Part shown: positions 21,693 to 62,824 of the stretch, piece after piece
Position numbering within the stretch: the first letter of the stretch is position 1
How the letters are laid out: every line of letters starts with the position of its first letter
Sequence record: PZ402300.1
Reading direction: 5' to 3' (one strand)
From: a phage
DNA length: 64,000 nucleotides
The notes under the pieces: model-generated
What the model was told of the DNA's origin: nothing
Database searches by the model: none
The model's input: the letters and a program-made list of their open reading frames with translations, nothing else
Translations under genes and position numbers: made by a program

Positions 21693-21753
21693 ACATTCAC
21701 TTACTGTACAGTGAATCTTCTTATACGATATAAGTTTGAACAGGAATCATGCT

Positions 21754-24700
21754 ATGTCAACATTTGACCGTCTGGCAGGTTTCGCAGACAGCATCACTAC
21801 TGCTAAGCAAGTCGATGTCTCTACTGCAACCTCTCGGAAACAAGCTGAACAAGGGCAAAGCCCTTTCCAACTAACCCCACAGAACGCTTACCAATTACAG
21901 GCAGGTCGTGCTGGTGACTTAGGTGCTGGTGCATTTGACCCAGGTTCTATTCAGGCAGATTTTACTAATGCCTCCCCCCTTGAAATCGTAAACAAATATG
22001 GCAATGAGCAGGGAATGGACATTCTCAATGCTCGTGTCAATGCAGCTAATGCTGTTCGTCGTGATTTAACTAAGAGTCGTACATATGGTGAAGCACTTGG
22101 TGATACCCTTTTTGGTGTTGGTCTTGGTGTTGCTAATACCCTTGGGGGCATTGCTGCTCTTGGCACAGGTTTGGTCAATGATAATGCCGGGGCATCCATT
22201 GCTTCCGGTCTTGACTGGTTAAACAAAGGTGTACACAACCTACAGTCTGATGCACTGAATGCTCGTCGTAATGTAGTACAGAACCAGAACGTAATATCTG
22301 CACAGGAAAATGAGAAACTCTATAAGCAGGATGTTGCTAAAGGGGAAAGTGAACTCGTTGCTTCTCTGTCTCGCATTGGTCGTGATGCTTACGATTCCGT
22401 TGCTAACACTTTATCCAATGGTATGGCTGCTACAGATGGTCTGGCTGAGGGTGTTGGTTCTCTGTTTACAGGTGGTCCATTAATTCGTGGTGTATCTGCA
22501 CTTGGTAAAGTAATGGTAGGTGGGGATAAAGCTGTTAAGGGTATTACCTTAGCTGCTGAATTAGGTTCACGTCCTGCACGTACTGCATTAGCTACTGGTC
22601 GTGTTGCTGCACCTGCTATGGCAATTGGTGGTATGGAAGCTGGTGGTGCATACCAACAGACTGCTAATGAAATTATGGAAATGCCATTCAGTGAACTGGC
22701 TGCTAAATCTTCTGTATACCAACAGCATATTAAAGACGGTCTGCCTCCTGAAGAAGCTCGTCGTCAGACTGCATCTGAAACGGGTATTACTGCTGCTGGT
22801 TTAACTGCTCCGATTGCTGCTCTTACTGGCCCATTAGTATCCAAGTTTGAACTTAACCCACTTAAGGTAGGTTCACTGGCTGGTGCTGGTTCTAATATGC
22901 TACGTGAGACTGTAGAAGAAGGTATTCAGTCTGGTACAAGTCAGTTTGCACAGAACAAGGCAATTCAGGGTAATGTAGATGCTAATCGTGACCTGCTTAA
23001 AGGTGTTGGTGAACAAACCGGGCTTGGTGCATTGTATGGCTTTGGCTCTGCTGGAGTTGCTCAAGCTCCTGGTGCAACTGTTAAGGCTGCTGGTGCTGCC
23101 GTTGGTCCTGCTGTACGTACTACCCTGGCTGGTGCTTCTCTGGCTGGTAAGGCACTAGCAAAAGTAGCTTCTCCTATTACTAACATCCTGGTTCAACGTG
23201 GAGAAGAAGTAGCTAAACGTAACGAACAAGCATCCCCTGTATCAGACGCTACAGTTAATGCTGCTGCACAAGAAGCTACTGCTCAGGCAGAACAAGCGCA
23301 AGCAACTGTACAGGAAGCAGTAGATGCAATGGACATTTCTCCAGAAGAGAAAGCTGCTGCTACCCAATATGCTGCTGACTTAACTCAGGTAATGAAGTTT
23401 GACCCAGTAGAACTGGAACAAGCTAGTCCTGCAATCCGTGAAGCTGTTTCTGGTTCCACTAACCGTGTTGAAGCTATTCAGAAGATGGCTGACTTGGTTA
23501 ATACTGCTGAAGACCCTAATGTTCAAATGGAAGCTGCAATCCAGATGTATGACAACATCATGTCTATGGATAGCTTCATTAACCGTGACCCGGGTGCATT
23601 AGCTAATCTGGAACAAGGTTCTCCTGCTGCTAATATTGTTGACCAGTTCTCTGGTCTGATGGCTAACGTTCAGAATACACCAAAGGTACTTCGTGCATTC
23701 CGTGCTATTCATTCTATGATTCAGGAACAGGCTGAAGCAGGTAAACTGAAAGCTACTGAGGAAGCCAATCAAGCTCAGGCAAACAATATTGCTATGGCTG
23801 CTGATATGTCTCCAGAAGTACTGGATGCAGATTCAGTGAACATGGTTCTGAAACATGCAAGTGAAGGTAAGATTACACTGGGGAATCGTCAGCGTGCTGC
23901 CCTGCAATCTGCTGCTGCTCTATTGCAAGGAGCACGAGAATTTGACGCTAAAGCAGAAGAACTAGGCTTACGTCCTCAAGACATTGTTAGTAAACAGATT
24001 AAAACCGACGAATCTCGTTCTAATGAAGGCCAGTACTCTGCGTTGCAACATGCTAAACGCATTCGTTCTGCGTACAACTCTGGTAACTTCGATTTGGCTT
24101 CCGCTTATCTCGACGACTTTATGAAGTTCGCCCAGCACATGCAGAATAAGGTCGGAGCGTTGAATGAGCATCTGATTTCTGGGAATGCGGATAAAAATAA
24201 GTCTGTTCATTATCAGGCTCTTACTCCCTCGCGTGAATGGGTACGTAGTCGTACTGGCCTCGGTGTCAATCCGTATGATACCAAGTCGGTTAAGTTTGCC
24301 CAGCAAGTAGGACTGGAGGCCAAGACCGTAGCTGATATTGCTAACGCACTTGCTACGGCTTACCCGGAGCTTAATGTTTCTCATGTGAAAGTTACCCCAT
24401 TGGATTCACGTCTGGACAAACCTGCTGCCCAGGTAGTTAAAGAGTTCCGTCAGGGCAATCTTGATGCTGCTCAATCCCAACAGACCAATGAACCAGTGAA
24501 TCAGGTTGATGAAACTCCTGTTACGAAACAGGAACCAGTTACCCCTACTGTACAGACTAAACCCTCTGTTAGTGAAGCTGTTAAAACAGAATCCACTATT
24601 AAAGAGTCTAAACCACAGTCTGTAAAAGAACCTGAGAACCAGTCTGAAAAACAGGATGTTACCCTCACTAATGAGGATACCACTCAGGAAGTGGCTGAAA

Positions 24701-27700
24701 CTAAAACAGAAATGGAAACAGTGTTCCCTGTCTATAACAATGAAAAGACACCGAACCAGTTCATTAAAGCATTTTCTCTACCAGAAGAACCTAAGTCTCG
24801 TACCATTGGTTCTGAGTCTCCTCTGACCGATGTTAAGAAAGCACTGTCTTCTGCTGCTCGTTTCGAAGCATTCACTCAAAAAGAAAATAACGCCCTCACA
24901 AGTGATGTGATTAAGCGTTATCAGGACTTATTTGATTTTGGTGAAATTCTGAAGACTACCCTGTCTGACCGTCTGGCTAAGTTCCTTGCTAATAAGAATG
25001 TTGGTAAACGTTTTGCAGAAGGTACTGAGGCTAACCGTTGGGTAGGTGGTAAGTTACTTAACATCGTAGAAAAAGATGGTGACACCTTTAAGTTCAATGA
25101 CCAGTTGTTAGAGACTGCTGTACTTGCTGGTCTGCAATGGCGATTAACTGCTACACAGAATGCTGCTGTTAAAGACATGAAAGACGTAGCTGCTATTACT
25201 GGTGTAGAAGCATCTCTGCTACCAGAAGGCATTTTGGCTGATTTCGAAAATGCTCAGACATTGGTTGAAGCTACTAACTCACTGGCTCAAAAGATTGAAT
25301 CTTATTGGGGACTTAACCGTAATGCTGATGCACCACTTGGTTATACCAAGGGTATCCCAGTGGCAATGGCTACAGAGATTCTATCTTCTTTTATTGAGAT
25401 GGGTGTAGTTAAAGAGTCTATGCTGGATGTGTCTGAGATTGACCCAGAATCTAAAAAGACTGTTGGTCTGTATACCATTGATAAGTTAGAGGATAATGAT
25501 GCCATTAATAATTTCCCTACTGCTATTGAGGAAGCTGTCCTTGTAGAACCAGCAGAGAAACTGTACCTAGGTGATGATATTCCTTCCGTGGCTCCTACTC
25601 AGTTACGTAACCCTGCTGTCCGTAATACTCCAGAACAGAAAGCTGCTCTTAAAGCAGAACAGGCTACTGAGTTCTTTGTACATACTCCAATGGTTCAGTT
25701 CTATGAGGCGTTAGGTAAAGACCGTATCCTCGAACTGATGGGTGCAGGTACTCTGGATAAAGATTTACTTAATAAGAACCATGCTAAATCTTTGGAAGGC
25801 AAGAATCGTTCAGTAGAGGATTCTTATAACCAATTGTTCTCTGTTATTGAACAGGTAAGAGCACAGAGTGAAGACATTTCCACTGTGCCTATTCACTATG
25901 CATACAATATGACTCGTGTTGGTCGTATGCAGATGTTAGGTAAATATACCCCCCAATCAGCTAAGCTGGTTCGTGAGGCTATTTTACCTACCAAAGCTAC
26001 TCTGGATTTATCGAACCAGAACAACGAAGATTTCTCTGGCTTCCAGCTTGGACTGGCTCAGGCATTAGGTATCAAAGTTCATAAAATGACTCGTGAAACT
26101 ATGTCAGAGGAACTTACCAAAGCTCTGGAAGGTAAGCTGAAACCTGCTGTAGATATGATGGTTGAGTTTGATAAGTCTGGATACTTACCTACTGATGCAG
26201 TGGATATCTTAAGAACATCTCTGGGTAATGATAAATCCTTTGTGGCTCTCATGGCTCTTATGGAATATGCCCGTTACCTTAACAGTGATGACCGTGCCAA
26301 CTTTAATACTCCTTTGTACGTTGAAGCCGATGGGGTAACCAACGGACCAATCAACGCAATGGTATTAATGACTGGTGGTAAGTTCACTCCAAACTGGATT
26401 AAGAATACTGCCAAAGGTGGTTTGTTCTTTGGTAAAGCTGGTAAGACTATGAATGAGCATCATACGCAGGATGACAGTGTTGACCTGTATGAAGCATCTA
26501 CAAATAGTCTGCAATTCTATCTGAATGAATTACGTAATACTTACAGTAAAAATATTCCAGTTATAAACCAGATGGACCATCTCCAGAAGTTAATGAACTT
26601 GTTCATTAAAGACTTCAATCTTAAGGAAGACGGTACTCTGGACCTGAAGCGTGGTATCGCTAAAAACCCACTTACCATTACCATCTATGGTTCTGGTGCT
26701 CGTGGTATTGCAGGCAAGATGGTAAGTGCAATTACTGATACCATCTATGAACGCTTAAGCGACGTTCTGAAAGCCCGTGCTGTTGACCCTAACATTCCCC
26801 CAGCTATGGCGATGTTTGGTAAGGAGGCTGCGTCTGAGGCTGATGCTCAGGCTATGCTGGATACCTTCCTTACTTCTATGAAAGCGTTGACTGGGAATAT
26901 TCCAGCTAAGCGTAAAGGTAAGTTATTCATTAAGGAAGTAGACGGTGTTCTGACTGGTAAGTTAGACCCCCAGGAGTTTACTGTATCTGGTAATGCTCTT
27001 AAGAACTTACAAGAGAATATGCTGCATTTCTTTGTTGAGCCAATGAGGCAAAGTATCCGGTTCACTGTTGGTGAGGGGTTGATGCACTCTACTGAGAATT
27101 TGCAGAAAGCTACCCAGATTCAATCTCTGGTATTGCAGGATATGTTCCAACAAGCAGTACAGGCTAAGCTGGCAGAAAAAGAAAAAGACCCAACATGGAA
27201 GAAGGGTGATTTCTTAACGCAGAAAGAATTGAATGAAATCCAGAATAGCTTAGCTCCACTGGCTCCAATGATTAAGACTGGTTCCCAGACTTTCTACATT
27301 GCTGGAAGTGAGAATACTGACGTTGCTAACCAAGTATTGGCTACCAACTTAGATGACCGTATGCGTGTGCCAATGAGTATCTATGCTCCTTCGCAGGCAG
27401 GTGTTGCAGGTATTCCCTTTATGACCATCGGTACTGGTGATGGCATGATGATGCAGACCCTTTCTACTATGAAAGGTGCTCCGAAGAATACCCTGAAAAT
27501 CTTTGATGGTATGAACATTGGTATCAATGACATTACTGATGCAAGTCGTAAAGCTAATGAGGCTGTATATACTTCCTGGCAGGGTAATCCTATTAAGAAT
27601 GTATATGAGTCTTTCTCTAAGTTTGTTAAGAATGTTGATTTAAATAAGCTGTCCGATTCAGCAATAGATGCTATTGCAAAGTCTGCTTTAGACTTTGAGC

Positions 27701-30700
27701 AACGTGCTCATATTGCCAGGGTAGATGGTGATAGAGATTATAAAATTTCTATGATTAGAGATTCTGGTATTGCATTAATTGAGCGTAACCTACGTAACAT
27801 TGCTTTGGGTGTAGATATTCGTCACAAGGTAATGGACCAGGTACAGGTCACTGTTGACCAGATGGCTGCTGTTGGTGCTCCTTATGTGAACAACGGTAAA
27901 ATCTCTCTGGAAGGTCTGACTATAGACCAGCAAGTAGCCAAGCTGAACGAACTGTTTGATGCTGAATTAAACAAGCGTCGTGATGCAGTACGTGCTGCTA
28001 AAGCGGAACCAACGAAGGCAGAACCAGTGAAGGAAGTGCCGGTGAAAGTTGTACCAGCTATGGAGAAGGTAGGTCGTGTACTGAAGTCTGGTGTACGCCT
28101 GTTGTCTAATGCTGCTATTACTAAGCTGGCTAAAGAGATGTCTCCTGAACAGCAAGCAGTATTGAAAGAAATACAGAAATCTCTTGCTGCTAAAGACTAC
28201 AAGGTTGTTTACGGTACACCTTCTCAACTGGATGCCTACGCTATTGAGAAGAACATTACTCGCCCAGCACCAGAAGATATTGAAGCTGCTGAAGCAGGTA
28301 ATGCATATGGCTGGACTAACTTTGAAGATAAGACCATCTACTTAGTTACCCCTTCCTTAGAGACTTTGGTTCATGAATTAGTACATGCTTCTACTTTTGA
28401 ATCTGTACTGGCTCACTACGAAGGCACCCCTAATGAAGCTGTCCAGAACATTGAAGACCTGATGAACCAGTTCCGTGCTTTGGATGTTAAGGATGAATCC
28501 CCGGTAGTACGTGAAGCATATGCCGATGCACTGAATACCATTAATGGTCATTTGTCTAATGGCTTTATTGAACCAGCAATGGCTAAAGCTGCTGCACTGA
28601 ATGAGTACATGGCTTGGGGTTTAACCAACCGTGAACTTATTAGTAAGCAGAAGAAAACCACTGCACTTAAGACTATGGTTCAGGCTGTATATGAAGCAAT
28701 CAAACGTTTGGTATTCGGACGTAAGAAAGCTCCAGCTAATGCAGATGATATGTTCTCGGGCTTATTGTTTAACTCTGCTGTAGTTATGCGTGGGCAGGCT
28801 CCTACTGCTGCTGTAGCCAAAGACACTACCCTGTTCCATAACAAAGCATATGGTGACAATACTCGTCTGGAAGAGTTAGGGAAAACCTTCGATAAGTTGA
28901 TTACTGACTACATTGGTTCAGAACCAGTACAGCAAGTAATTCGTAAAGGTAAGTTTTCCGATGCAGTAGTGAATGCAACTAAAGTAACTCGTGATGTTCA
29001 GGCTCATGGCTTCACCATGAATATGCAGGAACAGCGTCTCTTTACTAACATTGTTGCTGCTCTCGCTACCGAGGCTGCTATTAACCCTGCTGCTCTGGCT
29101 CGTGCACAGGAATACTACACGCATGTTACTAAGAATCTGACTGTTGAAGCATTTATGTCTGACCCTGATAGTACTAACCCTGCTGACCGTTACTATGCAC
29201 AGCAGAAGTTCGATACCATCATGGGTGCTAACAACATTGAGTTTGATGCACAAGGTCGTTCTTCCTTACTGCCTACCTTTGTTGGTCTGGCAATGGTAAG
29301 CGAAGAGGTACGTAAGGTACTGGCTTATATTCCTGTTATGAAAGCAGATAAGAAATCAGGCAATACCGTTGATGCAATGCTGACTAATATCGGTACTGCT
29401 GCAATGGCTAGTTTGAATGCTCGTGTAGCAGGCGATACTAAAGCCACTAACGTACAAGAAGGTATGGATGCACTGGCTCAGACAATCATGCAGACCAGCC
29501 TTAATGCAGAGTCCTTCTATGATTCCGTTGCTACTCCTACCGGTAATGCTATTGACCGTGCTAACCAGTATCTGGTGGATTCTATTGATGTACTGTCTAC
29601 CCGTGCTTTAGAAGGTGCTCGTGAAGTTGCAGCTAATACCAAGAACCCATTGGTTAAAGGTGCTGCTCATGCTGCACAACTGGTAGCTGCTATTGCTACA
29701 GAGAAGAATGGTTCAATCGTAGCTGAGGGTGTTATGGCTGCAATGAACCAAGGTAAAGTATGGCAACCTTTCCATGACCTGGTTAATGACATAATCGGTC
29801 GTACTAAGAGCAATGCTTCTGTATACGATTTGATTAAAGCAGTACGTGCACAGGTACAAGCTGACCGTCAACAGTTCCGTGAACACCTACCTACCACTAT
29901 CGCATCCAAATTCAGCCGTAAGCTGACTAATGATGAGTGGAAAGCAATGCATACCGGTATGGGTAAAACTGACTTAGCTGTTCTGCGTGACACTATGTCT
30001 CTGGCTGAAATCCGTGACCTACTGACTGACCAAAAGATTGTTGACCGTGAGGTTAATAAACTGGAAGCAGATTTGCAGAAACAAGCAGGACGTAACTGGC
30101 CTCTGATTAATCGTAAATCTAAGCAACTGGCTCAGTACATGATTAATGGTACAGTCGGTAATAACCTGCTGCGTAATGCTACTGCAATTTCACGTTTGCT
30201 GGGTGAACGTAAGACTACACGTTCTGTTGTAGATGTAGCTCAGCTGGATAAACTGATTACTTTATATGCACTGGAAGCAATGAATAAGACTGACCGTGAG
30301 ATGTTATCTTCACTGGCTCAGACAGAAATTGAAGGTATGGACTTTGCTACATCTTACCTGGTTGGCCAGCGTAAAGATGAAATGGCTAAAGTCAAGTCTG
30401 ATAGTCGTGCAACTCTGAACCAGTACAAAGGGTATATTCCTGGTGAGACTAAACAGGGTGTTAACCTGATTGTTGCTGAAGATAGTCAGTTTGTTGATTT
30501 GATTGAGAAATCCTATGTACGTCTGGGGACTTATCAAGGTAGCTCTGCTAATCGTGGTCCAGCACGTAGTTACTACTTTGCACCAGTACAGGCACAGGCT
30601 CCATTCTCACAGGGTATCCTACAGAACGTTCGCAATACTGCTGGTGGTGTAGACCTCGGCACAGGCTTTACGATGGGAACCATGGTAGCCGGTCGTATTA

Positions 30701-32175
30701 CAGACAAACCTTCCGTAGACCGTATCACTAAAGCACTGGCTCGTGGTGAACGTGGTAATGAACCACTGCTGCCTGTATATGATGCTAATGGTAATGTGGT
30801 TGCTTACGAGCAATCCATTGACCCTAACATGCTGAAGCACATCGAGGGTGAGAACCATCTTGCTAGTGCAATCGGTGTATGGCGAGGTCGTCAGGTAGAA
30901 GAGGCTAAGGCTCAGCGTTTCAACGATATGTTGATTGAGAACCTGCATAGCATGTATGAGAACGACATTAAGATGTCTGCCTCTAATAAGTCCCAGTACG
31001 TTAACCTTCTTGGTTCTAAACTGGACCCAGTAACTGCTGATGCTCTTAAGCTGATGAACAGTGAAACACGTCAGAAAGCAGAAAGTCTGTTTGGCCCTGA
31101 TGAACTGTGGGTACGTCGTGACATGCTTAATGATGCTTTGGGTTATCGTGCAGCTTCTGTTGGTGATGCCTGGTCTGGTAATTCTCGATGGTCCCCAGAA
31201 ACACTGGATACCTTCAAGAAAGCTATGCTAGGTGTATTTGGTAACCGTGCTTATAAGTATGTAATGGGTGGTGAGAACCTGGTTCAGAACTTAGTTAAAG
31301 AAGCTAAAACCCTGATTGTAGTTAAGTCAGTGGTTGTACCTGCTGTTAACTTCTTAGCTAACCTTTACCAGATGGTTGCTCGTGGTGTACCTGTTAAGAA
31401 CATTGCTAAGAGCATTCCACAGAAGACTGCTGAGATTAACCAGTACCTGAAATCTCGTCTGCGTCAGGTAGATGCAGAAGCAGAATTACGTGCAGCTACG
31501 AATCCGAACCAGATTCGTAAACTTAAGGCTGAGATTCAGTCCATCACGGATAGTCATAAGCGTTTGAGTATCTGGCCTCTGTTAGAAGCTGGTGAGTTCT
31601 CTTCGATTGCAGATGCTGGTATTGGACGTGATGATATTCTGATTACTGAAGGTAAACTTCACGAATACATGGAAAAGCTGGCTGATAAGTTGCCTAAGTC
31701 TGTACGTAACGCAGGTCGTTATGCTCTTATCACTAAGGATACTGCTCTTTTCCAGGGTATCCAGAAGACGGTTGAGTACTCTGACTTTATTGCTAAAGCA
31801 ATCATCTATGATGAACTGACTCAGCGTAAAGGTAAGACTCGTGAAGAAGCACTTGGACGTGTAACGGAAGAGTTCATTAACTATGACCGTCTGCCAGGTC
31901 GCTTCCGTGGGTATATGGAAAGTGTTGGTCTTATGTGGTTCTACAACTTTAAGATTCGTTCTGCAAAAGTTGCAGTGTCCATGATTCGTAACAACCCAGT
32001 ACACGCTGCTATGGCTATGCTGGCCCCAACTCCTACCATGTTTGGTAACGTTGGTCTGCCTATTCAGGACAACATCTTTAGTATTGCTGCACAGGGCAAT
32101 CTCGGTTACTCATTCGGTTTCGGACAAGGCTTACGTGCTCATACCCTGAACCCATGGCTCAACCTCACTAACTAA
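21754..32175 (+). CDS. virion-encapsidated RNA polymerase (N4 vRNAP-like), ~3470 aa
   Basis: Giant ORF; internal T7-like motifs PLYVEADGVTNG (motif A-like), KRGIAKNPLTITIYGSG (motif B-like), FDGMN; AGGAA RBS before ATG 21754. Confidence 0.85.
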   Translation: MSTFDRLAGFADSITTAKQVDVSTATSRKQAEQGQSPFQLTPQNAYQLQAGRAGDLGAGAFDPGSIQADFTNASPLEIVNKYGNEQGMDILNARVNAANAVRRDLTKSRTYGEALGDTLFGVGLGVANTLGGIAALGTGLVNDNAGASIASGLDWLNKGVHNLQSDALNARRNVVQNQNVISAQENEKLYKQDVAKGESELVASLSRIGRDAYDSVANTLSNGMAATDGLAEGVGSLFTGGPLIRGVSALGKVMVGGDKAVKGITLAAELGSRPARTALATGRVAAPAMAIGGMEAGGAYQQTANEIMEMPFSELAAKSSVYQQHIKDGLPPEEARRQTASETGITAAGLTAPIAALTGPLVSKFELNPLKVGSLAGAGSNMLRETVEEGIQSGTSQFAQNKAIQGNVDANRDLLKGVGEQTGLGALYGFGSAGVAQAPGATVKAAGAAVGPAVRTTLAGASLAGKALAKVASPITNILVQRGEEVAKRNEQASPVSDATVNAAAQEATAQAEQAQATVQEAVDAMDISPEEKAAATQYAADLTQVMKFDPVELEQASPAIREAVSGSTNRVEAIQKMADLVNTAEDPNVQMEAAIQMYDNIMSMDSFINRDPGALANLEQGSPAANIVDQFSGLMANVQNTPKVLRAFRAIHSMIQEQAEAGKLKATEEANQAQANNIAMAADMSPEVLDADSVNMVLKHASEGKITLGNRQRAALQSAAALLQGAREFDAKAEELGLRPQDIVSKQIKTDESRSNEGQYSALQHAKRIRSAYNSGNFDLASAYLDDFMKFAQHMQNKVGALNEHLISGNADKNKSVHYQALTPSREWVRSRTGLGVNPYDTKSVKFAQQVGLEAKTVADIANALATAYPELNVSHVKVTPLDSRLDKPAAQVVKEFRQGNLDAAQSQQTNEPVNQVDETPVTKQEPVTPTVQTKPSVSEAVKTESTIKESKPQSVKEPENQSEKQDVTLTNEDTTQEVAETKTEMETVFPVYNNEKTPNQFIKAFSLPEEPKSRTIGSESPLTDVKKALSSAARFEAFTQKENNALTSDVIKRYQDLFDFGEILKTTLSDRLAKFLANKNVGKRFAEGTEANRWVGGKLLNIVEKDGDTFKFNDQLLETAVLAGLQWRLTATQNAAVKDMKDVAAITGVEASLLPEGILADFENAQTLVEATNSLAQKIESYWGLNRNADAPLGYTKGIPVAMATEILSSFIEMGVVKESMLDVSEIDPESKKTVGLYTIDKLEDNDAINNFPTAIEEAVLVEPAEKLYLGDDIPSVAPTQLRNPAVRNTPEQKAALKAEQATEFFVHTPMVQFYEALGKDRILELMGAGTLDKDLLNKNHAKSLEGKNRSVEDSYNQLFSVIEQVRAQSEDISTVPIHYAYNMTRVGRMQMLGKYTPQSAKLVREAILPTKATLDLSNQNNEDFSGFQLGLAQALGIKVHKMTRETMSEELTKALEGKLKPAVDMMVEFDKSGYLPTDAVDILRTSLGNDKSFVALMALMEYARYLNSDDRANFNTPLYVEADGVTNGPINAMVLMTGGKFTPNWIKNTAKGGLFFGKAGKTMNEHHTQDDSVDLYEASTNSLQFYLNELRNTYSKNIPVINQMDHLQKLMNLFIKDFNLKEDGTLDLKRGIAKNPLTITIYGSGARGIAGKMVSAITDTIYERLSDVLKARAVDPNIPPAMAMFGKEAASEADAQAMLDTFLTSMKALTGNIPAKRKGKLFIKEVDGVLTGKLDPQEFTVSGNALKNLQENMLHFFVEPMRQSIRFTVGEGLMHSTENLQKATQIQSLVLQDMFQQAVQAKLAEKEKDPTWKKGDFLTQKELNEIQNSLAPLAPMIKTGSQTFYIAGSENTDVANQVLATNLDDRMRVPMSIYAPSQAGVAGIPFMTIGTGDGMMMQTLSTMKGAPKNTLKIFDGMNIGINDITDASRKANEAVYTSWQGNPIKNVYESFSKFVKNVDLNKLSDSAIDAIAKSALDFEQRAHIARVDGDRDYKISMIRDSGIALIERNLRNIALGVDIRHKVMDQVQVTVDQMAAVGAPYVNNGKISLEGLTIDQQVAKLNELFDAELNKRRDAVRAAKAEPTKAEPVKEVPVKVVPAMEKVGRVLKSGVRLLSNAAITKLAKEMSPEQQAVLKEIQKSLAAKDYKVVYGTPSQLDAYAIEKNITRPAPEDIEAAEAGNAYGWTNFEDKTIYLVTPSLETLVHELVHASTFESVLAHYEGTPNEAVQNIEDLMNQFRALDVKDESPVVREAYADALNTINGHLSNGFIEPAMAKAAALNEYMAWGLTNRELISKQKKTTALKTMVQAVYEAIKRLVFGRKKAPANADDMFSGLLFNSAVVMRGQAPTAAVAKDTTLFHNKAYGDNTRLEELGKTFDKLITDYIGSEPVQQVIRKGKFSDAVVNATKVTRDVQAHGFTMNMQEQRLFTNIVAALATEAAINPAALARAQEYYTHVTKNLTVEAFMSDPDSTNPADRYYAQQKFDTIMGANNIEFDAQGRSSLLPTFVGLAMVSEEVRKVLAYIPVMKADKKSGNTVDAMLTNIGTAAMASLNARVAGDTKATNVQEGMDALAQTIMQTSLNAESFYDSVATPTGNAIDRANQYLVDSIDVLSTRALEGAREVAANTKNPLVKGAAHAAQLVAAIATEKNGSIVAEGVMAAMNQGKVWQPFHDLVNDIIGRTKSNASVYDLIKAVRAQVQADRQQFREHLPTTIASKFSRKLTNDEWKAMHTGMGKTDLAVLRDTMSLAEIRDLLTDQKIVDREVNKLEADLQKQAGRNWPLINRKSKQLAQYMINGTVGNNLLRNATAISRLLGERKTTRSVVDVAQLDKLITLYALEAMNKTDREMLSSLAQTEIEGMDFATSYLVGQRKDEMAKVKSDSRATLNQYKGYIPGETKQGVNLIVAEDSQFVDLIEKSYVRLGTYQGSSANRGPARSYYFAPVQAQAPFSQGILQNVRNTAGGVDLGTGFTMGTMVAGRITDKPSVDRITKALARGERGNEPLLPVYDANGNVVAYEQSIDPNMLKHIEGENHLASAIGVWRGRQVEEAKAQRFNDMLIENLHSMYENDIKMSASNKSQYVNLLGSKLDPVTADALKLMNSETRQKAESLFGPDELWVRRDMLNDALGYRAASVGDAWSGNSRWSPETLDTFKKAMLGVFGNRAYKYVMGGENLVQNLVKEAKTLIVVKSVVVPAVNFLANLYQMVARGVPVKNIAKSIPQKTAEINQYLKSRLRQVDAEAELRAATNPNQIRKLKAEIQSITDSHKRLSIWPLLEAGEFSSIADAGIGRDDILITEGKLHEYMEKLADKLPKSVRNAGRYALITKDTALFQGIQKTVEYSDFIAKAIIYDELTQRKGKTREEALGRVTEEFINYDRLPGRFRGYMESVGLMWFYNFKIRSAKVAVSMIRNNPVHAAMAMLAPTPTMFGNVGLPIQDNIFSIAAQGNLGYSFGFGQGLRAHTLNPWLNLTN

Positions 32176-32763: not shown

Positions 32764-33144
32764 TCAGATTGTACAACCACCACCGTCACAGGTGTTGTTT
32801 TCTGCAAAGGAAGCCAATGCTTTAGCAGTCTCTTCTTTATCATGCAGTGCCTGACGTAGCAGGTAACCTTCTAATTCCCAAATCTTATTGAATGCATTTT
32901 CATATGCATACTGACGCCCCTTCTGCTCATCATAGATAGCTGGATCAACGCAGGCAGATACGCCTTCAACTTTGAATCCATTTTCCAGGATGATAATGCA
33001 ATAGGTTACCAGTCCCAGGTTAGCCAAATCATCTGCTGGAAGTGCAGAAGGGTCAACGAATGCAGACTTCACTGCATCAGCACCATTGAAATAGTAAACG
33101 CTCTTAATCTTAGCTTCGATTGCTTCTTTACTTACTGTTGCCAT
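32764..33144 (-). CDS. hypothetical protein
   Basis: ORF with GAGG RBS before ATG at 33144. Confidence 0.4.
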   Translation of the reverse strand: MATVSKEAIEAKIKSVYYFNGADAVKSAFVDPSALPADDLANLGLVTYCIIILENGFKVEGVSACVDPAIYDEQKGRQYAYENAFNKIWELEGYLLRQALHDKEETAKALASFAENNTCDGGGCTI

Positions 33145-33206
33145 TATTAACCTCATAGAGTGGTTTGAGTTTGTACTTAAACATGATTGTGTTTATTAAT
33201 ACTCAA

Positions 33207-33232
33207 ATAAAAAAATCCCTCCGAAGAGGGAC
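33207..33232 (-). terminator. rho-independent terminator downstream of tRNA region
   Basis: tccctc-cgaa-gaggga hairpin with poly-U on minus strand. Confidence 0.65.
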
Positions 33233-33470
33233 TTAGTAGCTTTAACGCAGCTAACGAGGCTAGGTCGTCAAACTACTATCACTAGTGTGCTAAGCGACGG
33301 TGGGTTGTTAGCCTGATAGTAGTAAGACGTAGGTTTGGATTTTTAAGTGTTACCTTCACTAGCGAAATTCCCATCGAGGGGAATAACAATACAATAGCAG
33401 CCACTGGACTGTCTTACCAGTGTTGTCTTTAGAGTGCGATGCAATCAGGACTATGTTACTGCTAAATGAG

Positions 33471-33544
33471 TACCCACTACTGGATTTGAACCAGTGACCT
33501 TCCGATTATTAGTCGGTTGCTTTCCCCGTCTAAGCTAAGTGGGC
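33471..33544 (-). tRNA. tRNA, 74 nt, no encoded CCA; anticodon loop CUAAUAA (anticodon read as AAU)
   Basis: 7-bp acceptor stem, D-arm GCUU/AAGC, T-arm ACUGG-UUCAAAU-CCAGU folded by hand. Confidence 0.6.
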
Positions 33545-33549
33545 ATAAA

Positions 33550-33625
33550 TGGTTACCCGGACAGGATTCGAACCTGTGTCCTAGTTGGTTTACTAGTGGG
33601 GCTTTACCACTAAGCCTACCGGGTA
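33550..33625 (-). tRNA. tRNA-like gene with encoded CCA; anticodon arm atypical, isotype undetermined
   Basis: Perfect acceptor stem UACCCGG/CCGGGUA, D-arm GGCU/AGCC, T-arm ACAGG-UUCGAAU-CCUGU; anticodon stem is palindromic CUAG with 8-nt loop UAAACCAA. Confidence 0.5.
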
Positions 33626-33828
33626 TTAATGAGTGAGTCATGCCAGGCTTTAACTGGCTCCTTCTTCGCAATCCTTACATACCCCTACATAATTATTGCG
33701 TTAAGCTTTTTTGTTTAAGTTTAAATGAAGGCGTTCTTGCTGACTCATAATTGGGTTGGGCGTTTGACGAATGACTAGTTCGTTACTACCCATTTGCCAT
33801 AAGTACCTGGCGACTTCGGATAACGGGG

Positions 33829-34000
33829 GATGGAATCGAACCACCAGTATTAAGTCTTATTCGTGCACCAAGCACGCTAGTAGATTACTCTACCGGAGGG
33901 AATCGAACCCTATCTACTTCACCAGACCCACCATAATTCTTCTAATTCAGAGTAGCACTGTTGCAGTCGTCACTGCTCATAGGTAAGGATTCGAACCTTA
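33829..34000 (-). other. three T-arm-like hairpins without identifiable acceptor stems (possible tRNA remnants)
   Basis: gatgg-aatcgaa-ccacc (33829-33845), gaggg-aatcgaa-cccta (33896-33912), taagg-attcgaa-cctta (33984-34000). Confidence 0.3.
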
Positions 34001-34062
34001 CAATACCGTTGGTTTGCAACGTCGCTGTACCTTTTCGCGTTCTATGCAATGCTACTTTGAAT

Positions 34063-34186
34063 TGGTTACCAGTGAGGGATTCGAACCCCCGGTTGGAGTC
34101 TATAGCTTACCGCAGCAGCCCTCCAATCTAGCGGTGTCACACTTAGCCCAAACTTGAACATGTCAAGCCATCTCGTGCAACTGGTA
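34063..34186 (-). ncRNA. tRNA-like element, 124 nt, with encoded CCA and exact 7-bp acceptor pairing
   Basis: T-arm GGGGG-UUCGAAU-CCCUC; acceptor ACUGGUA pairs perfectly with UACCAGU 107 nt away. Confidence 0.3.
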
Positions 34187-34188
34187 AT

Positions 34189-34254
34189 TGGTTCCGGCGT
34201 CTGGACTCGAACCAGAACACTCATGCCGTGCACGACACTAGTACCTACACCGGA
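34189..34254 (-). ncRNA. tRNA-like element, 66 nt including CCA, apparently lacking a canonical D-arm
   Basis: T-arm UCUGG-UUCGAGU-CCAGA; acceptor CGCCGGA pairs with UCCGGUG (one G-U). Confidence 0.3.
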
Positions 34255-34335
34255 ATTAATTGCCAGGGATTACACCTGGCTCCATCTGTTTTTATAGTCA
34301 CTCAGATATCGTCTGGACTTGTTGTGTTTGCATTC

Positions 34336-34434
34336 CACAACGGAAAGAGCACTGGAACTTGGGCTGGGTATTACCGCATGTCTTTCGACTTCGAACCAAG
34401 GCTGACATTACCCAATGCTCTTACCTGTTGTGTG
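34336..34434. repeat. direct repeat unit 1 (begins cacaacggaaag, ends cttacctgttgtgtg)
   Basis: Shares both terminal motifs with 34539-34624. Confidence 0.5.
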
Positions 34435-34538
34435 TTGTGGAGTGACGCACCATCTCACTCTTGAATGTTAACCCACTCCCAGCCCAGCAACACACGCTAC
34501 GGTTAAGATTATTGCGCGCGCTGTATGGTCTTGCTGGT

Positions 34539-34624
34539 CACAACGGAAAGGGCACTTAACAGAAGATAGGTCTGATTGCCTCGGATGATTTCTCAGTAGC
34601 CTAAATGCCCTTACCTGTTGTGTG
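34539..34624. repeat. direct repeat unit 2
   Basis: Same terminal motifs as 34336-34434. Confidence 0.5.
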
Positions 34625-35039
34625 CCCATTATTAATCACAGCGGGCCACTGCGCCGAATTTGTTTACAAGGAATCGGAAGACCCTGCTGACTTACAGGCT
34701 ATTACGCCACCATCAGAACAACATCATCGTTTGCATTTATGTTATTGGTTCGTTTCTAAAAAACCGCATAATCGCTTACGAAAACTATCAAAGAGTACAC
34801 TAAGCACAGGTAGCTATCCTGCCGTCTTCTCCATCTACACCGGCTACAGTGTAAACCTCCGCACGTTAGCTTAATGTACTCATTGATAGGATGTCATAAT
34901 AGGGGAGGGAGGACGAGTCCCTCTTTACCCTATGATTTAGTTTACATGTAAGACCTAACATTTCAATGCTGGATGGATAGCGTAATGAACTATCCGACAT
35001 TAATGGTTAATGTTGTGCTCAGCATGAGCGTTAGTTGAT

Positions 35040-35130
35040 AAGGGATCTGAAGCCTTATCCCAAAGATACTAACCTTTGGGATATAGCCTAAGATTCAGAA
35101 ATGGCCCCTATAGGGAGAGGCCATTGATTA
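35040..35130. promoter_or_regulatory. three consecutive stem-loops in long non-coding region (regulatory or origin-like)
   Basis: gataagg..ccttatc, tcccaaag..ctttggga, aatggcc..ggccatt inverted repeats back to back. Confidence 0.25.
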
Positions 35131-35600
35131 ACCCGAATGTTGCTTTACATTTGCTGTGATAACCCATTCTTAAAATAGTCTACCTGACGGATGGGCATCA
35201 ACCCTAGCGTCAGTGCCATACGGCAAAGATTAAGCTAAGAAAGGTTATGATAGGAGTTCCTATCTCAAAGGATTCTAACAGAACCCTTCACGATATTAAC
35301 TACTCAATGTGAAATTCTTTGATTCCTTCTACAGGTTCTACACCCAAGAAAAAGCTAATTTTTCCATTTAGTTTAGATTGAACCAATGGACTGGGGAGAG
35401 TATTCCAATCCACTGGTTCGGTTGTTGTTGTTACTCTGGCGGCTTGTCACCACCGTGTTTACCACTGCATTTCCACAGGATAATGACAGTGATGATAAAA
35501 GCTATGTATGGAGCCGACACGTCTATAATCCTGACCAGTAGTAGCATCAGGACTATAAACACTACCACACCTAGCAGCAGCTTCTGAGCCACCTACCAGA

Positions 35601-62216: not shown

Positions 62217-62824
62217 AATCATGTACAGTCATTACAGGGAATGGCTTCTTAGGTAAAGTATTGAGCATAGTCAGGATTACATCTGTATCAACCAATGCAA
62301 TGGTTTCTGAGTCCAGATAATCAAAGATACGGGTAGACAGAAAGCCTGATTTCTCATAGCTAGCCCACAGTGTATTAACCGTTTCATGACTAGCACCAGG
62401 GACAACTATGTATTCACCAGTTCCTTCACAGAGGGACTTAATATAGTTCACCTGGTTCACGTTGAAGTTACAACGACGCAGCATCTCACGTACCACCATC
62501 CCATCAATAGAGTGAGTGATGTTAGCAGAGAGCATACGGGTCTTCTCTTCAGTACCCTGAACCATACGAGTGATGTCGAATGGCTTACCTAAGAAGTTAA
62601 CAGTCTGTACTTCAGGAACCATGACCTTAATGACAGCATGGAAGTTGTCAGGAAGTACCCATACGTAACGGTTAGCATCAGGATTACCACATTGCAGTAA
62701 GAACTTGTTAAGTGCCCAAGGACCACTAGCAACAGTTTCCATTACATTCTCAAAAGTCTTGAGACGAATACCTTCACCGAATACTTCTTTAGGCTTGGCT
62801 TCTGAGCCGTAGAATGCAGTCATA
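62217..62824 (-). CDS. T7-like single-subunit RNA polymerase, exon 2 (motif B to catalytic HD)
   Basis: MTAFYGS aligns with T7 MTLAYGS; ends PVMTVHD aligning with T7 FALIHD; UAA stop sits at the junction. Confidence 0.65.

What the first reader, a model, noticed from the sequence alone, without database searches (positions are those of the whole stretch)
34063..34254. Two adjacent tRNA-like elements with CCA and exact acceptor stems but wrong lengths
Both have canonical T-arms, encoded CCA and 7-bp acceptor complementarity, but one spans 124 nt (about 50 nt too long) and the other 66 nt (no room for a normal D-arm). They sit 2 nt apart, like the tight packing of the two tRNAs at 33471-33625. 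They could be intervening-sequence-containing or degenerate tRNAs, or tRNA-like decoys.
Basis: seen in the sequence. Interest (0 to 1): 0.5.

Follow-up and report, generated by a model that had tools for sequence, protein, structure and literature searches.

The report
Non-decoding tRNA-like RNAs in N4-like phage
Two neighbouring genes in an N4-type coliphage encode conserved RNAs that keep the acceptor end and T arm of a tRNA but have the anticodon loop replaced by capped hairpins, so they are real tRNA mimics that cannot decode and whose role is still unknown.

Summary
B (34254->34189, 66 nt) and A (34186->34063, 124 nt) each have a 7-bp acceptor stem, a canonical T arm and an encoded ACCA end, and lie 2 nt apart. 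The window is a G7C/N4-like phage (Gamaleyavirus).

ARAGORN (default and intron mode) and all Rfam families at E<=10 find no tRNA here or at shifted coordinates.

They are not decaying pseudogenes. Both recur in about 72 N4-like phage records. B is 66/66 identical in phage N4, where flanking DNA is 72-78% identical. Almost every stem substitution across relatives is compensated: 99.7% of cells paired in A, 98.1% in B.

The anticodon loop is replaced by tetraloop-capped hairpins (B G-UGCA-C, A C-UGCG-G). A also has a 55-nt invariant core.

A and B assort independently: their order is swapped in Klebsiella phage KP8, and some genomes carry only A or only B.

Most likely they are tRNA-derived stable RNAs matured by the tRNA-processing machinery and acting through acceptor/T-arm mimicry. 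Whether as decoy, processing signal or carrier is not shown. The closest analogue is T4 species 1 RNA.

A larger side-finding lies 450 nt upstream: an unannotated tmRNA-like tag RNA, widespread in enterobacterial phages, with a box complementary to host ssrA.

The parts
34189..34254 (-). Element B, a 66-nt tRNA-like RNA. It has a 7-bp acceptor stem, the linker UAGG, one hairpin of about 10 bp capped by a UGCA tetraloop (in place of the D and anticodon arms), a T arm, and ACCA.
   Evidence: Sequence. RNAalifold independently gives the same fold. Double compensatory changes occur in the hairpin (2 pairs) and the T stem (2 pairs), with 98.1% of cells paired. B is 66/66 identical in phage N4.
34063..34186 (-). 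Element A, a 124-nt tRNA-like RNA. It has an acceptor stem, a conserved 5' region containing a 5-7-bp hairpin (CUUGA-CAUGU-UCAAG), a long irregular hairpin UUGGAG-GGCU...AGCU-CUCCAA capped by C-UGCG-G (an alternative pseudoknot ACCGC/GCGGU is possible), a T arm, and ACCA.
   Evidence: Double compensatory changes occur in 3 acceptor pairs, 1 hairpin pair and 1 T-stem pair, with 99.7% of cells paired. Columns 41-96 are invariant apart from one G/A position across E. coli and Klebsiella phages.
34255..34319 (-). Leader conserved together with B. It contains an A/T-rich promoter-like stretch (GACTATAAAAAC) and the hairpin GCCAGG-UGUAAUC-CCUGGC (34280-34262). It ends in U at position -1 of B.
   Evidence: The block W1382-1515 (leader plus B) is conserved as one unit: 96% in N4, 84-94% in KP8, BaqKoxi and IME11. 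The promoter reading is inference only.
33550..33625 (-). Neighbouring full cloverleaf tRNA-like gene with encoded ACCA but an even-sized (6- or 8-nt) anticodon loop, so it is probably also non-decoding. It is the best non-self hit of the A model.
   Evidence: ARAGORN reports 'tRNA-??? (ac)'. Rfam tRNA scores 42 bits with an 18-nt unaligned anticodon block. Homologues in KP8 and BaqKoxi have a different loop that is also even-sized. R2 scores 35.6 bits.
33470..33544 (-). tRNA-Ile(AAU), the only canonical-looking tRNA of the cluster. It has no encoded CCA.
33818..33933 (-). Element C, a third over-long tRNA-like RNA (about 116 nt). It has a 5' strand (U)GGUGGG, an internal T-arm-like hairpin, the hairpin GUAGA-GUAA-UCUAC, the hairpin CGUGC-UUGG-UGCACG, a terminal T arm, and a 3' strand CCCCGUU-A-UCC with no CCA.
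   Evidence: Alignment of 7 relatives shows compensated changes in the acceptor-like stem and in the GUAA hairpin. There are weak R2 hits to its homologues. Coordinates.
33944..34063 (-). Element X1, a structured cassette starting directly after A's CCA. A long closing helix (AAUUCAAAGUAGCAUUGCA / UGCAACAGUGCUACUCUGAAUU) encloses a T-arm hairpin (UAAGG-UUCGAAU-CCUUA). It has no CCA.
   Evidence: The structure was read by eye and not tested for covariation.
33213..33234 (-). Terminator-like hairpin followed by a U run, downstream of the cluster. It is the probable end of the transcription unit.
   Evidence: consensus scan only.

Best explanation
A and B are two separate, selectively maintained, tRNA-derived non-coding RNA genes. 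They lie in the tRNA/ncRNA island that N4-like phages (Enquatrovirinae) carry at the end of their replication-gene block.

Proposed path, with each step marked:
- They are transcribed on the minus strand together with the neighbouring tRNAs (inferred).
- RNase P cuts at the 5' ends. This is inferred from a U at -1, a 7-bp acceptor stacked on a 5-bp T stem, and the ACCA tail.
- The 3' ends are trimmed back to the genome-encoded CCA (inferred).
- The products fold with an intact acceptor/T-arm half. This is shown by covariation.

The anticodon half has been rebuilt. In B it is a single hairpin of about 10 bp closed by a UGCA tetraloop. In A it is a long irregular hairpin closed by C-UGCG-G, plus an extra hairpin and a 55-nt sequence-invariant core. 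Neither has a 7-nt anticodon loop, so neither can read a codon; this follows directly from the sequence.

The most likely mode of action is molecular mimicry of the tRNA acceptor/T-arm half. The RNA would engage a protein that recognises that half of a tRNA without needing an anticodon. Examples are a processing enzyme, a 3'-end- or acceptor-targeting host toxin or nuclease, EF-Tu, or a synthetase. The RNA could act as competitor, decoy, or handle. A's invariant core would add a second, sequence-specific contact.

Which partner is involved, and whether the RNAs are aminoacylated, is not shown.
For: Real and tRNA-like:
- Motif enrichment is 3 observed against 0.005 expected.
- Models built from A and B cross-hit true tRNAs.

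Not a canonical tRNA:
- ARAGORN default and intron modes and Rfam tRNA at E<=10 are all negative.

Under selection:
- About 72 phage records hold A and/or B; 37 hold both.
- The leader-plus-B block is 96% identical in N4 (B itself 66/66), where flanking DNA is 72.5-78% identical.
- A has an invariant core between E. coli and Klebsiella phages that are otherwise about 80-87% identical.
- In A, 5 pairs carry double compensatory changes and 99.7% of cells are paired. In B, 4 pairs do and 98.1% are paired. When partners are slid by 1-3 columns, pairing drops to 27-45%.
- RNAalifold reproduces the B fold exactly and most of the A fold.

Independent cassettes:
- Order is A then B in KP8 and B then A here.
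- A-only genomes include F22 and PhAPEC7. B-only genomes include N4, IME11 and BaqKoxi.

Not protein-coding:
- The overlapping 55-aa ORF (34066-34233) is broken by a 1-nt indel inside the B hairpin in KP8, IME11, BaqKoxi and CU10EC.

Precedent:
- T4 rnaC and rnaD are stable RNAs of 139 and 119 nt packed 1-6 nt from tRNA-Arg. rnaC carries a T arm.
Against: - No expression or end-mapping data exist, so transcription, processing and stability are all inferred.
- Only 9 (A) and 7 (B) distinct sequences were available, from closely related phages. The covariation is consistent but rests on few independent events.
- The near-identity of B between N4 and this phage could reflect recent cassette exchange rather than constraint.
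- For A, RNAalifold prefers pairing positions 6-12 with 45-51, leaving only a 5-bp acceptor. The invariant columns cannot discriminate between this and the tRNA-like fold.
- G18/G19 of A may be paired inside the hairpin, so an elbow contact is unproven.
- No partner protein is encoded nearby.
- No aminoacylation identity set is recognisable: there is no G3:U70, and the discriminator is A73.
Confidence: 0.6

Rival explanations
1. Processing punctuation. A and B exist mainly as RNase P / RNase E recognition modules. They would define the ends of neighbouring RNAs, such as the tmRNA-like tag RNA upstream or the flanking cassettes, in the way tRNAs punctuate mitochondrial transcripts or mascRNA defines the MALAT1 3' end. 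They would have no function as free RNAs.
For: - Spacers are 0-2 nt, and each cassette begins right after the previous CCA.
- In KP8 and F22, A follows the last pseudoknot of the tag RNA directly.
- In FelixO1-like and Erwinia phages the tag RNA is likewise followed by a tRNA.
Against: - Punctuation needs only an acceptor/T minihelix. It does not explain a 55-nt invariant core in A, compensated changes in the non-tRNA hairpins, or the conserved 65-nt leader of B.
- Genuine tRNAs could serve as punctuation and are available in N4.
Confidence: 0.2
2. Degenerate tRNA pseudogenes. They would be remnants of an ancestral tRNA array, like the 4-6 tRNAs still present in N4, KP8 and BaqKoxi. On this view they are now functionless and are merely carried along.
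For: - Relatives carry real tRNAs at the same locus.
- Phage tRNA clusters often contain pseudo-tRNAs. Records annotate 'tRNA-OTHER' or 'pseudo' here, and KP8 labels B itself tRNA-OTHER.
Against: - Conservation exceeds that of neighbouring coding DNA.
- Substitutions in stems are almost all compensated.
- There are no length-changing decay products beyond one 1-nt loop indel.
Confidence: 0.07
3. Detached tRNA-like domains for trans-translation. B (or A) would be a tmRNA TLD-only RNA, like that of mycobacteriophage DS6A. It would either titrate SmpB or serve as the acceptor part for the TLD-less tmRNA-like tag RNA 450 nt upstream.
For: - B has the TLD layout: an acceptor stem, no D stem, a helix where the anticodon stem would be, a T arm, and ACCA.
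- A tag RNA without any TLD lies in the same island.
- TLD-only RNAs are known, and a similar molecule inhibits tmRNA (PMC4131195, PMC11915505).
Against: - There is no G3:U70; both elements have C3-G70.
- No tmRNA family hits A or B at E<=10.
- There is no significant complementarity of A, B or the leader to the tag RNA or to E. coli ssrA (p 0.37-0.96).
- The shared 9-mer between B and the tag-RNA tip is not significant (p about 0.11).
- The tag RNA occurs in 768 phage records, while A/B occur in only 72. N4 has B but no tag RNA, and F22 has the tag RNA but no B.
Confidence: 0.07
4. Intron-containing or otherwise canonical tRNAs that the programs miss.
For: The acceptor stem, T arm and CCA are perfect. 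A is about 50 nt too long, as an insertion would make it.
Against: - ARAGORN in intron mode finds nothing. At low threshold it gives only composite calls spanning B plus A.
- No 5-bp stem with a 7-nt loop and U33 can be drawn in either element.
- Bacterial and phage tRNA introns are group I introns of more than 200 nt, and Rfam finds none here.
- B is too short rather than too long.
Confidence: 0.02

Closest known systems
Bacteriophage T4 species 1 and species 2 stable RNAs (rnaC, rnaD)
   Same: - They are over-long (139 and 119 nt) non-tRNA RNAs encoded inside a lytic phage's tRNA cluster.
- They are packed 1-6 nt from the neighbouring tRNA.
- rnaC has a canonical T arm (CCGGG-UUCGAAU-CCCGG) and terminal complementarity.
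- Their function is still unknown (my own knowledge).
   Different: - There is no sequence or model similarity. The A model hits T4 tRNA-Leu but not rnaC or rnaD.
- T4 rnaC has an imperfect terminal stem and no encoded CCA.
- A and B have perfect 7-bp acceptors and encoded ACCA.
TLD-only tmRNA of mycobacteriophage DS6A, and CDS-less plastid tmRNAs of about 65 nt
   Same: They are about 65-nt RNAs that retain only the acceptor/T-arm tRNA-like domain. The DS6A example is phage-encoded (PMC4131195, PMC11915505).
   Different: B lacks G3:U70 and does not match any tmRNA covariance model. The DS6A sequence itself was not compared.
mascRNA / MALAT1-type tRNA-like small RNAs (eukaryotic)
   Same: mascRNA is a roughly 60-nt tRNA-like RNA without a functional anticodon loop. 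It is made by RNase P/Z cleavage and carries CCA (my own knowledge).
   Different: It is eukaryotic and nuclear-encoded, and its CCA is added rather than encoded. There is no homology.
D-armless and armless mitochondrial tRNAs
   Same: They are short tRNAs (under 66 nt) that lack a D arm.
   Different: Those keep a 7-nt anticodon loop and do decode. B has a 4-nt loop. ARAGORN in mitochondrial mode does not call B at its own boundaries.
Canonical phage tRNAs of the same locus (N4 tRNA-Asn, Ser, Thr, Pro)
   Same: - The locus, strand and T-loop sequences are the same.
- They also have an encoded CCA followed by A.
- The A and B models cross-hit them at 21-33 bits.
   Different: They have full cloverleaves with 7-nt anticodon loops and Rfam scores of 50-77 bits. 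A and B score below Rfam reporting at E<=10.

Membership tests
Canonical elongator tRNA (cloverleaf; Rfam RF00005) | 7-bp acceptor stem, discriminator base, CCA end | tested here: met
   Both A and B. Acceptor pairs 3-5 of A covary.
Canonical elongator tRNA (cloverleaf; Rfam RF00005) | T arm: 5-bp stem and 7-nt UUCRANY loop | tested here: met
   B has UCUGG-UUCGAGU-CCAGA and A has GGGGG-UUCGAAU-CCCUC. Both covary.
Canonical elongator tRNA (cloverleaf; Rfam RF00005) | Anticodon arm: 5-bp stem and 7-nt loop with U33 | tested here: not met
   B has a hairpin of about 10 bp with a 4-nt loop. A has an irregular hairpin of at least 10 bp with a 4-nt (or 9-nt) loop.
Canonical elongator tRNA (cloverleaf; Rfam RF00005) | D arm with G18G19 | tested here: inconclusive
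   B has no D stem, only UAGG. A could form CACG/UGUG around AGAUGG, but these columns never vary, and RNAalifold prefers another pairing.
Canonical elongator tRNA (cloverleaf; Rfam RF00005) | Recognised by tRNA finders or the covariance model | tested here: not met
   ARAGORN default and intron modes, and Rfam at gathering threshold and at E<=10, all give no hit.
Intron-containing bacterial/phage tRNA | Group I intron core inserted in the anticodon loop, with exons forming a full cloverleaf | tested here: not met
   The only RF00028 hit is at 61983-62226. ARAGORN -i is negative. A's excess length of about 50 nt is too short for a group I intron.
tmRNA tRNA-like domain (including TLD-only forms) | G3:U70 alanine identity pair | tested here: not met
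   B and A both have C3-G70.
tmRNA tRNA-like domain (including TLD-only forms) | Match to tmRNA covariance models (RF00023, RF01849-51, RF04321, RF02544) | tested here: not met
   No hit on 34063-34254 at E<=10.
tmRNA tRNA-like domain (including TLD-only forms) | Binds SmpB and is alanylated | not testable with these tools
   Needs biochemistry.
T4-type stable RNAs of phage tRNA clusters (species 1/2) | Encoded within and co-oriented with a phage tRNA cluster, tightly spaced, not a decoding tRNA | tested here: met
T4-type stable RNAs of phage tRNA clusters (species 1/2) | Sequence or structure homology to rnaC/rnaD | tested here: not met
   R1 and R2 searches of the T4 locus hit tRNAs only.
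T4-type stable RNAs of phage tRNA clusters (species 1/2) | Accumulates as a stable processed RNA in infected cells | not testable with these tools
   No RNA data are available.
tRNA pseudogene | Relaxed constraint: uncompensated stem changes, indels, patchy loss | tested here: not met
   99.7% and 98.1% of stem cells are paired. There are 9 pairs with double compensatory changes. Cores are invariant.

The most novel reading that the evidence does not exclude
A and B, together with the odd-looped tRNA, element C and X1, would form a phage toolkit of anticodon-less tRNA mimics. Under this reading they manipulate host factors that read the acceptor end of tRNA: for example, they could blunt tRNA-end-targeting defence toxins or interfere with trans-translation. 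They would work alongside the neighbouring TLD-less tmRNA-like tag RNA, whose conserved box pairs with the host ssrA tag codons. The island would then be an RNA-only counter-defence and translation-hijack locus.
Probability: 0.12. Interest if true: 0.85.

Novelty: new variant of a known kind. Interest (0 to 1): 0.55.

Why it matters
Phage tRNA clusters are usually read as codon-supply devices, or recently as replacements for tRNAs cut by host defences. Here most members of the cluster, in a classic phage family that includes N4 itself, keep the acceptor/T half under selection but have lost the anticodon loop. This points to a function that does not involve decoding.

If the RNAs prove stable and have a defined partner, they would be bacterial-virus counterparts of the tRNA mimics known from eukaryotes and RNA viruses. 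They might also shed light on the T4 species 1/2 RNAs, whose function remains unknown.

There is a practical consequence too. Genome annotations of these therapeutic-candidate phages currently place spurious small ORFs, 'tRNA-OTHER' or nothing over these genes.

Tried and rejected
- ARAGORN with introns, mitochondrial mode and thresholds lowered to 70-80% gave only composite or shifted calls: tRNA-Pro with an 82-nt 'intron' spanning B plus A, and a 'tmRNA' built from B's 5' end and A's 3' end. I rejected these as artefacts.
- All Rfam families at E<=10 gave nothing on A or B.
- blastn of A plus B against 5,426 E. coli genomes gave no match, so there is no host homologue or target with long complementarity.
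- IMG/VR pattern scans gave only the same phage lineages.
- The single metagenome scan, with a 14-mer from B, returned 120 loci. Only one (L116) is a real B; the rest are chance matches. The pattern was too short for that collection.
- Protein-coding reading of the overlapping 55-aa ORF was rejected because of a frame-breaking 1-nt indel among relatives.
- The idea that the hypervariable tip of the tag-RNA helix is homologous to B's 5' end (shared CCGGUGUAG) was rejected. A Smith-Waterman score against shuffles gives p about 0.11.
- Base-pairing of A, B or the leader with ssrA or with the tag RNA is not above chance.
- An RNAduplex run timed out. I replaced it with an exact-complement search.
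- Pfam on ten neighbouring ORFs found no tRNA- or RNA-related protein.
- Literature searches for N4-like tRNA-like RNAs, phage tmRNA-like RNAs and the tag peptides found nothing specific.
Full report
CONTEXT. The window is an N4-like podophage of the G7C group (Gamaleyavirus, Schitoviridae). A 2.3-kb query around the finding matches PhAPEC5, EC1-UPM, St11Ph5 and many others at 82-94%. The 3,479-aa ORF at 21736-32175 is presumably the giant virion RNA polymerase typical of the family; I did not test this. The finding lies in a stretch of about 2.2 kb (33157-35377) with no ORF above about 90 aa. This stretch sits between a gp49/Sf6-gene-66 family gene (32764-33156) and the replication-gene block, all on the minus strand. 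ARAGORN and Rfam find two tRNAs there, both on the minus strand: 33470-33544 (Ile, AAU) and 33550-33625, which has an abnormal anticodon loop.

THE OBSERVATION.
- B (34254->34189, 66 nt): UCCGGUG-UAGG-[hairpin]-U-UCUGG-UUCGAGU-CCAGA-CGCCGGA-A-CCA.
- A (34186->34063, 124 nt): UACCAGU-...-GGGGG-UUCGAAU-CCCUC-ACUGGUA-A-CCA.
- They are 2 nt apart.

A strict scan asked for a perfect T stem, a TTCRANY loop, a 7/7-paired acceptor and NCCA. It finds three sites in the window (B, A and the odd tRNA) against 0.005 per shuffled window. No program finds a canonical tRNA here or nearby:
- ARAGORN default and intron mode give nothing.
- Rfam at gathering threshold gives nothing.
- All Rfam families at E<=10 give nothing on A or B.
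- Lowering ARAGORN's threshold yields only composite calls that splice pieces of B and A together.

CONSERVATION. A 241-nt query covering A and B hits 72 phage records, all N4-like phages of Escherichia, Shigella and Klebsiella.
- 37 records hold both elements.
- Some hold only the A part (F22, Mimir124, E20, PhAPEC7, ST4).
- N4 itself and its close relatives hold only the B part, at 97-99% identity.

In N4, B lies inside the tRNA cluster (Asn, Ser, Thr, B, another T-arm element, Pro). The GenBank record does not annotate that cluster at all. B is 66/66 identical between this phage and N4. The flanking DNA that still aligns is 72.5% and 78% identical.

Against Klebsiella phage KP8, A is 86.7% identical and the leader-plus-B block 84%. 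In KP8 the order is A then B, the reverse of this window. The elements are therefore independent cassettes that are reshuffled among phages. The shared ...ACCAAU junctions are a plausible recombination substrate; this is inference.

STRUCTURE AND COVARIATION. I aligned the 9 distinct A sequences and the 7 distinct B sequences.

For B, RNAalifold independently returns a 7-bp acceptor, one hairpin of 10 pairs with a 1x1 internal loop and a 4-nt loop, and a 5-bp T arm.
- Double compensatory changes occur at two hairpin pairs (U-A to C-G, C-G to U-A) and two T-stem pairs.
- 98.1% of cells are paired, against 28-45% when partners are slid.

For A:
- Three acceptor pairs change on both sides: UACCAGU/ACUGGUA, UAUCAGU/ACUGAUA and UACUGGU/ACCAGUA.
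- One pair of the CUUGA/UCAAG hairpin and one T-stem pair (G-C to A-U) also change on both sides.
- 99.7% of cells are paired.
- Positions 41-96 are invariant except for one G/A that switches a G.U to an A-U pair.

That core can form a nested hairpin: UUGGAG/CUCCAA plus GGCU/AGCU, extended by RNAalifold to a C-UGCG-G cap. It can also form a pseudoknot (ACCGC/GCGGU). With no variation, neither can be tested. RNAalifold also offers an alternative in which A's positions 6-12 pair with 45-51, leaving a 5-bp acceptor. The covarying pairs (3-5) fit both versions.

Neither element has a 5-bp stem with a 7-nt loop. Both end their 'anticodon' helix in a tetraloop. They therefore cannot decode, and they offer no anticodon loop to an anticodon nuclease.

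WHAT THEY ARE NOT.
- Not intron-containing tRNAs. There is no intron core. The only group I intron is at 61983-62226. B is too short rather than too long.
- Not decaying pseudogenes, given the conservation and compensation above.
- Not protein-coding. The 55-aa ORF at 34066-34233 is frame-shifted by a 1-nt indel in the B hairpin of KP8, IME11, BaqKoxi and CU10EC.
- Not tmRNA tRNA-like domains in the strict sense. Both have C3-G70 instead of G3:U70, and there are no tmRNA model hits.

ANCESTRY. Covariance models built from B (R1) and A (R2) recover all homologues at 85-160 bits. They also hit genuine tRNAs well above noise:
- R1 hits N4 tRNA-Thr at 28.2 bits and tRNA-Asn at 25.9 bits.
- R2 hits the odd tRNA at 35.6 bits, N4 tRNA-Ser at 32.9 bits and T4 tRNA-Leu at 25.0 bits.

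A is thus closest to long-variable-arm (class II) tRNAs. Both elements are tRNA derivatives. In phage VTCCBPA_322 the B position is occupied by a different 128-nt element with a perfect UCCAGGA/UCCUGGA acceptor and ACCA.

THE NEIGHBOURHOOD. A and B are two of at least five non-canonical tRNA-like cassettes on this strand.
- The cloverleaf at 33550-33625 has an even-sized anticodon loop (6 or 8 nt). Its KP8 and BaqKoxi homologues have a different loop that is also even-sized.
- Element C (33933-33818) carries two T-arm-like hairpins and compensated stems.
- X1 (34063-33944) has a T-arm hairpin inside a long helix.

Only tRNA-Ile(AAU) looks canonical. The recurring theme is retention of the acceptor/T half with loss or alteration of the anticodon loop.

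MECHANISM.
- Shown: the folds of the acceptor, the T arm and the replacement hairpins; the absence of an anticodon loop; purifying selection; cassette independence.
- Inferred: co-transcription with the tRNAs; RNase P cleavage (U at -1, a 12-bp acceptor/T stack, an ACCA tail); 3' trimming to the encoded CCA; accumulation as stable RNAs.

From this I commit to tRNA mimicry through the acceptor/T half as the mode of action. The RNA would be a competitor or decoy for a factor that recognises that half of tRNA, with A's invariant core as an additional specific contact. I rate the structural and genetic part as very likely. The specific decoy function is only the leading guess.

The main rival is a pure processing-punctuation role. 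It fits the tight spacing, and it fits the position of A directly after the tag RNA in KP8 and F22. It does not explain the invariant core or the compensated non-tRNA hairpins.

COMPARISON WITH KNOWN SYSTEMS. The best analogue is the pair of T4 stable RNAs, species 1 (rnaC, 139 nt) and species 2 (rnaD, 119 nt). They sit 1-6 nt from tRNA-Arg in the T4 tRNA cluster, and rnaC has a canonical T arm. There is no sequence or model similarity to A or B. TLD-only tmRNAs (mycobacteriophage DS6A; plastid forms of about 65 nt) share B's layout but not its identity elements. I found no paper describing these N4-family RNAs. GenBank records carry nothing, spurious small CDSs, or, in KP8, 'tRNA-OTHER' over B.

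SIDE-FINDING: A tmRNA-LIKE TAG RNA. About 450 nt upstream on the same strand, Rfam gives a sub-threshold tmRNA_permuted hit: 27.7 bits against a gathering score of 47, and 31-33 bits in relatives. ARAGORN at 80% threshold calls a permuted tmRNA with tag ANDDVVLMVA**.

The reading frame at 34734-34699 is GCA AAC GAT GAT GTT GTT CTG ATG GTG GCG TAA TAG. It has no in-frame ATG, GTG or TTG between an in-frame TAG eight codons upstream and the GCA; I read this directly from the sequence.

Across 12 N4-like relatives the last two codons are:
- GCG GCG, GCA GCC or GCT GCT (all Ala-Ala), or
- GTG GCG or GTC GCC (Val-Ala).

A divergent allele encodes ANEEAYLMVA. This is peptide-level constraint, and the tag resembles SsrA's ANDENYALAA.

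The module is preceded by a 20-bp helix with compensated changes and a hypervariable tip, and by a GNRA hairpin. It is followed by a hairpin and pseudoknots. No convincing tRNA-like domain is present in cis.

The module is not confined to N4-like phages. blastn finds it in:
- 768 phage records: T1-like, FelixO1-like, Mooglevirus, Erwinia phiEa21-4, Kuttervirus and P1-like, as well as N4-like;
- 487 plasmids, mostly non-mobilizable replicons of about 95-100 kb that look P1-like by size, usually matching over only 57 nt;
- 657 of 5,426 E. coli genomes. In the one chromosomal hit I inspected, it lies in a lambdoid prophage between the Q antiterminator gene and the holin gene.

It is not annotated as an RNA in the records I inspected. 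In Felix-like, Erwinia and P1-like phages it sits in or beside the tRNA cluster, and in four lineages a TTGACA-N17 promoter lies just upstream.

Tags in the other lineages are ANDNVFLAVA, ANDAQFLAVA, ANDSEVLMAA and ANDDLMMVAA, again with synonymous differences. ARAGORN at default settings reports a 749-nt 'tmRNA*' spanning several tRNAs in phage Mijalis. That call is clearly a mis-assembly around the same tag.

A conserved box near the RNA's 5' end, GUUUUCGU extended variably to CGUAGUUUUCGU or UAGUUUUCGUC, is the reverse complement of E. coli ssrA positions 96/97-104/108, which are tag codons GAC GAA AAC UAC.
- I verified the ssrA sequence in all 5,426 genomes.
- In all eight phage lineages tested, the longest exact complement to ssrA (8-12 nt) falls at that same site.

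A TLD-less tag RNA that can pair with the host tmRNA's own tag codons suggests interference with, or re-programming of, trans-translation. I could not take it further.

It is not an obligate partner of A or B:
- Its distribution is ten times wider than that of A/B.
- N4 has B without the tag RNA, and F22 has the tag RNA without B.
- There is no significant complementarity to A or B.

VERDICT. The 'tRNA-like, not canonical' reading is right; the intron and pseudogene readings are wrong. A and B are a new, conserved variant of the phage 'stable tRNA-like RNA' theme, with function unknown and mimicry the most likely mode. They are of moderate interest in themselves. The island they sit in, and especially the tag RNA, deserves a study of its own.

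Noticed in passing
window 34889-34604, minus strand (tag frame 34734-34699; helix 34889-34869 with 34805-34785; box 34789-34778; GNRA hairpin 34780-34767): An unannotated tmRNA-like 'tag RNA' with no tRNA-like domain.
- It has a resume-type frame encoding ANDDVVLMVA with no start codon.
- Relatives show synonymous or Ala/Val-only variation in the last two codons.
- It gives sub-threshold RF04321 hits.
- It is present in 768 phage records of many families, in 487 plasmids (mostly ~95-100 kb, non-mobilizable) and in 657 of 5426 E. coli genomes.
   Followed up: partly
window 34789-34778 (minus strand) against E. coli ssrA positions 96-108 (L152 357-369): The conserved 5' box of the tag RNA ((CG)UAGUUUUCGU(C)) is the exact reverse complement of host ssrA tag codons GAC GAA AAC UAC. 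In 8 of 8 phage lineages tested, the longest complement to ssrA (8-12 nt) maps to this same site. This suggests antisense pairing with the host tmRNA.
   Followed up: partly
window 33550-33625, minus strand: A cloverleaf tRNA with encoded ACCA but a 6-nt (or 8-nt) anticodon loop (CUAGU-AAACCA-ACUAG). Homologues in KP8 and BaqKoxi have a different loop that is also even-sized, and in KP8 this gene directly precedes the tag RNA.
   Followed up: partly
window 33470-33544, minus strand: tRNA-Ile with anticodon AAU and no encoded CCA. My own knowledge is that A34 is unusual for a bacterial-type Ile tRNA. It is conserved in many relatives.
   Followed up: no
window 33818-33933, minus strand: Element C, a roughly 116-nt tRNA-like RNA. 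It has two T-arm-like hairpins, a GUAA-capped hairpin with compensated changes (GUAGA/UCUAC, GUGGA/UCCAC, GUGAAG/CUUCAC) and a covarying terminal stem. It ends N-CC(U/C) rather than CCA.
   Followed up: partly
window 33944-34063, minus strand: Element X1. A T-arm hairpin (UAAGG-UUCGAAU-CCUUA) is enclosed by a long helix of about 19 bp. It begins immediately after A's CCA and is 96% conserved in IME11.
   Followed up: no
window 34539-34622 and 34335-34432, minus strand: Two paralogous long hairpins (CACAACAGGUAAGRGCAU ... GUGCYCUUUCCGUUGUG) with different interiors. The same unit flanks the tag RNA in a lambdoid prophage (L145 about 3925-3992 and 4176-4282) and in Mijalis and FO1a.
   Followed up: no
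window 34899-34966, minus strand: A sigma70-like promoter (TTGAAA-N16-TAAACT, 34966-34939) is followed by a minihelix-like hairpin: AUAGGG ... GAGGGA-CUCGUCC-UCCCUC-CCCUAU (34933-34899). It lies upstream of the tag RNA and is conserved in several relatives.
   Followed up: no
window 61983-62226, minus strand, with ORF 61278-61922 (minus strand): A group I intron (RF00028, 92.8 bits) lies directly upstream of an HNH endonuclease ORF (PF13392, E=1e-15). It follows a 202-aa ORF (62215-62823) with no Pfam match, so this is probably a mobile intron splitting a phage gene.
   Followed up: partly
L007 (phage N4, EF056009 32451-33130): The reference N4 record annotates no RNA genes in this interval. 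ARAGORN and Rfam find tRNA-Asn, Ser, Thr and Pro there, plus element B and one further T-arm element.
   Followed up: partly
L011 1437-1564 (Escherichia phage VTCCBPA_322): A different 128-nt tRNA-like cassette (acceptor UCCAGGA/UCCUGGA, T arm GGAGG-UUCGAUU-CCUUC, ACCA) occupies the position of B. The family of over-long tRNA-like cassettes is therefore larger than A and B.
   Followed up: no
L148 (Salmonella phage SJ3, Kuttervirus), about 700-1400: Around its copy of the tag RNA (tag ANDSEVLMAA) this phage has four T-arm motifs. None is called as a tRNA by ARAGORN, and none has a 7-bp acceptor partner within 160 nt.
   Followed up: no
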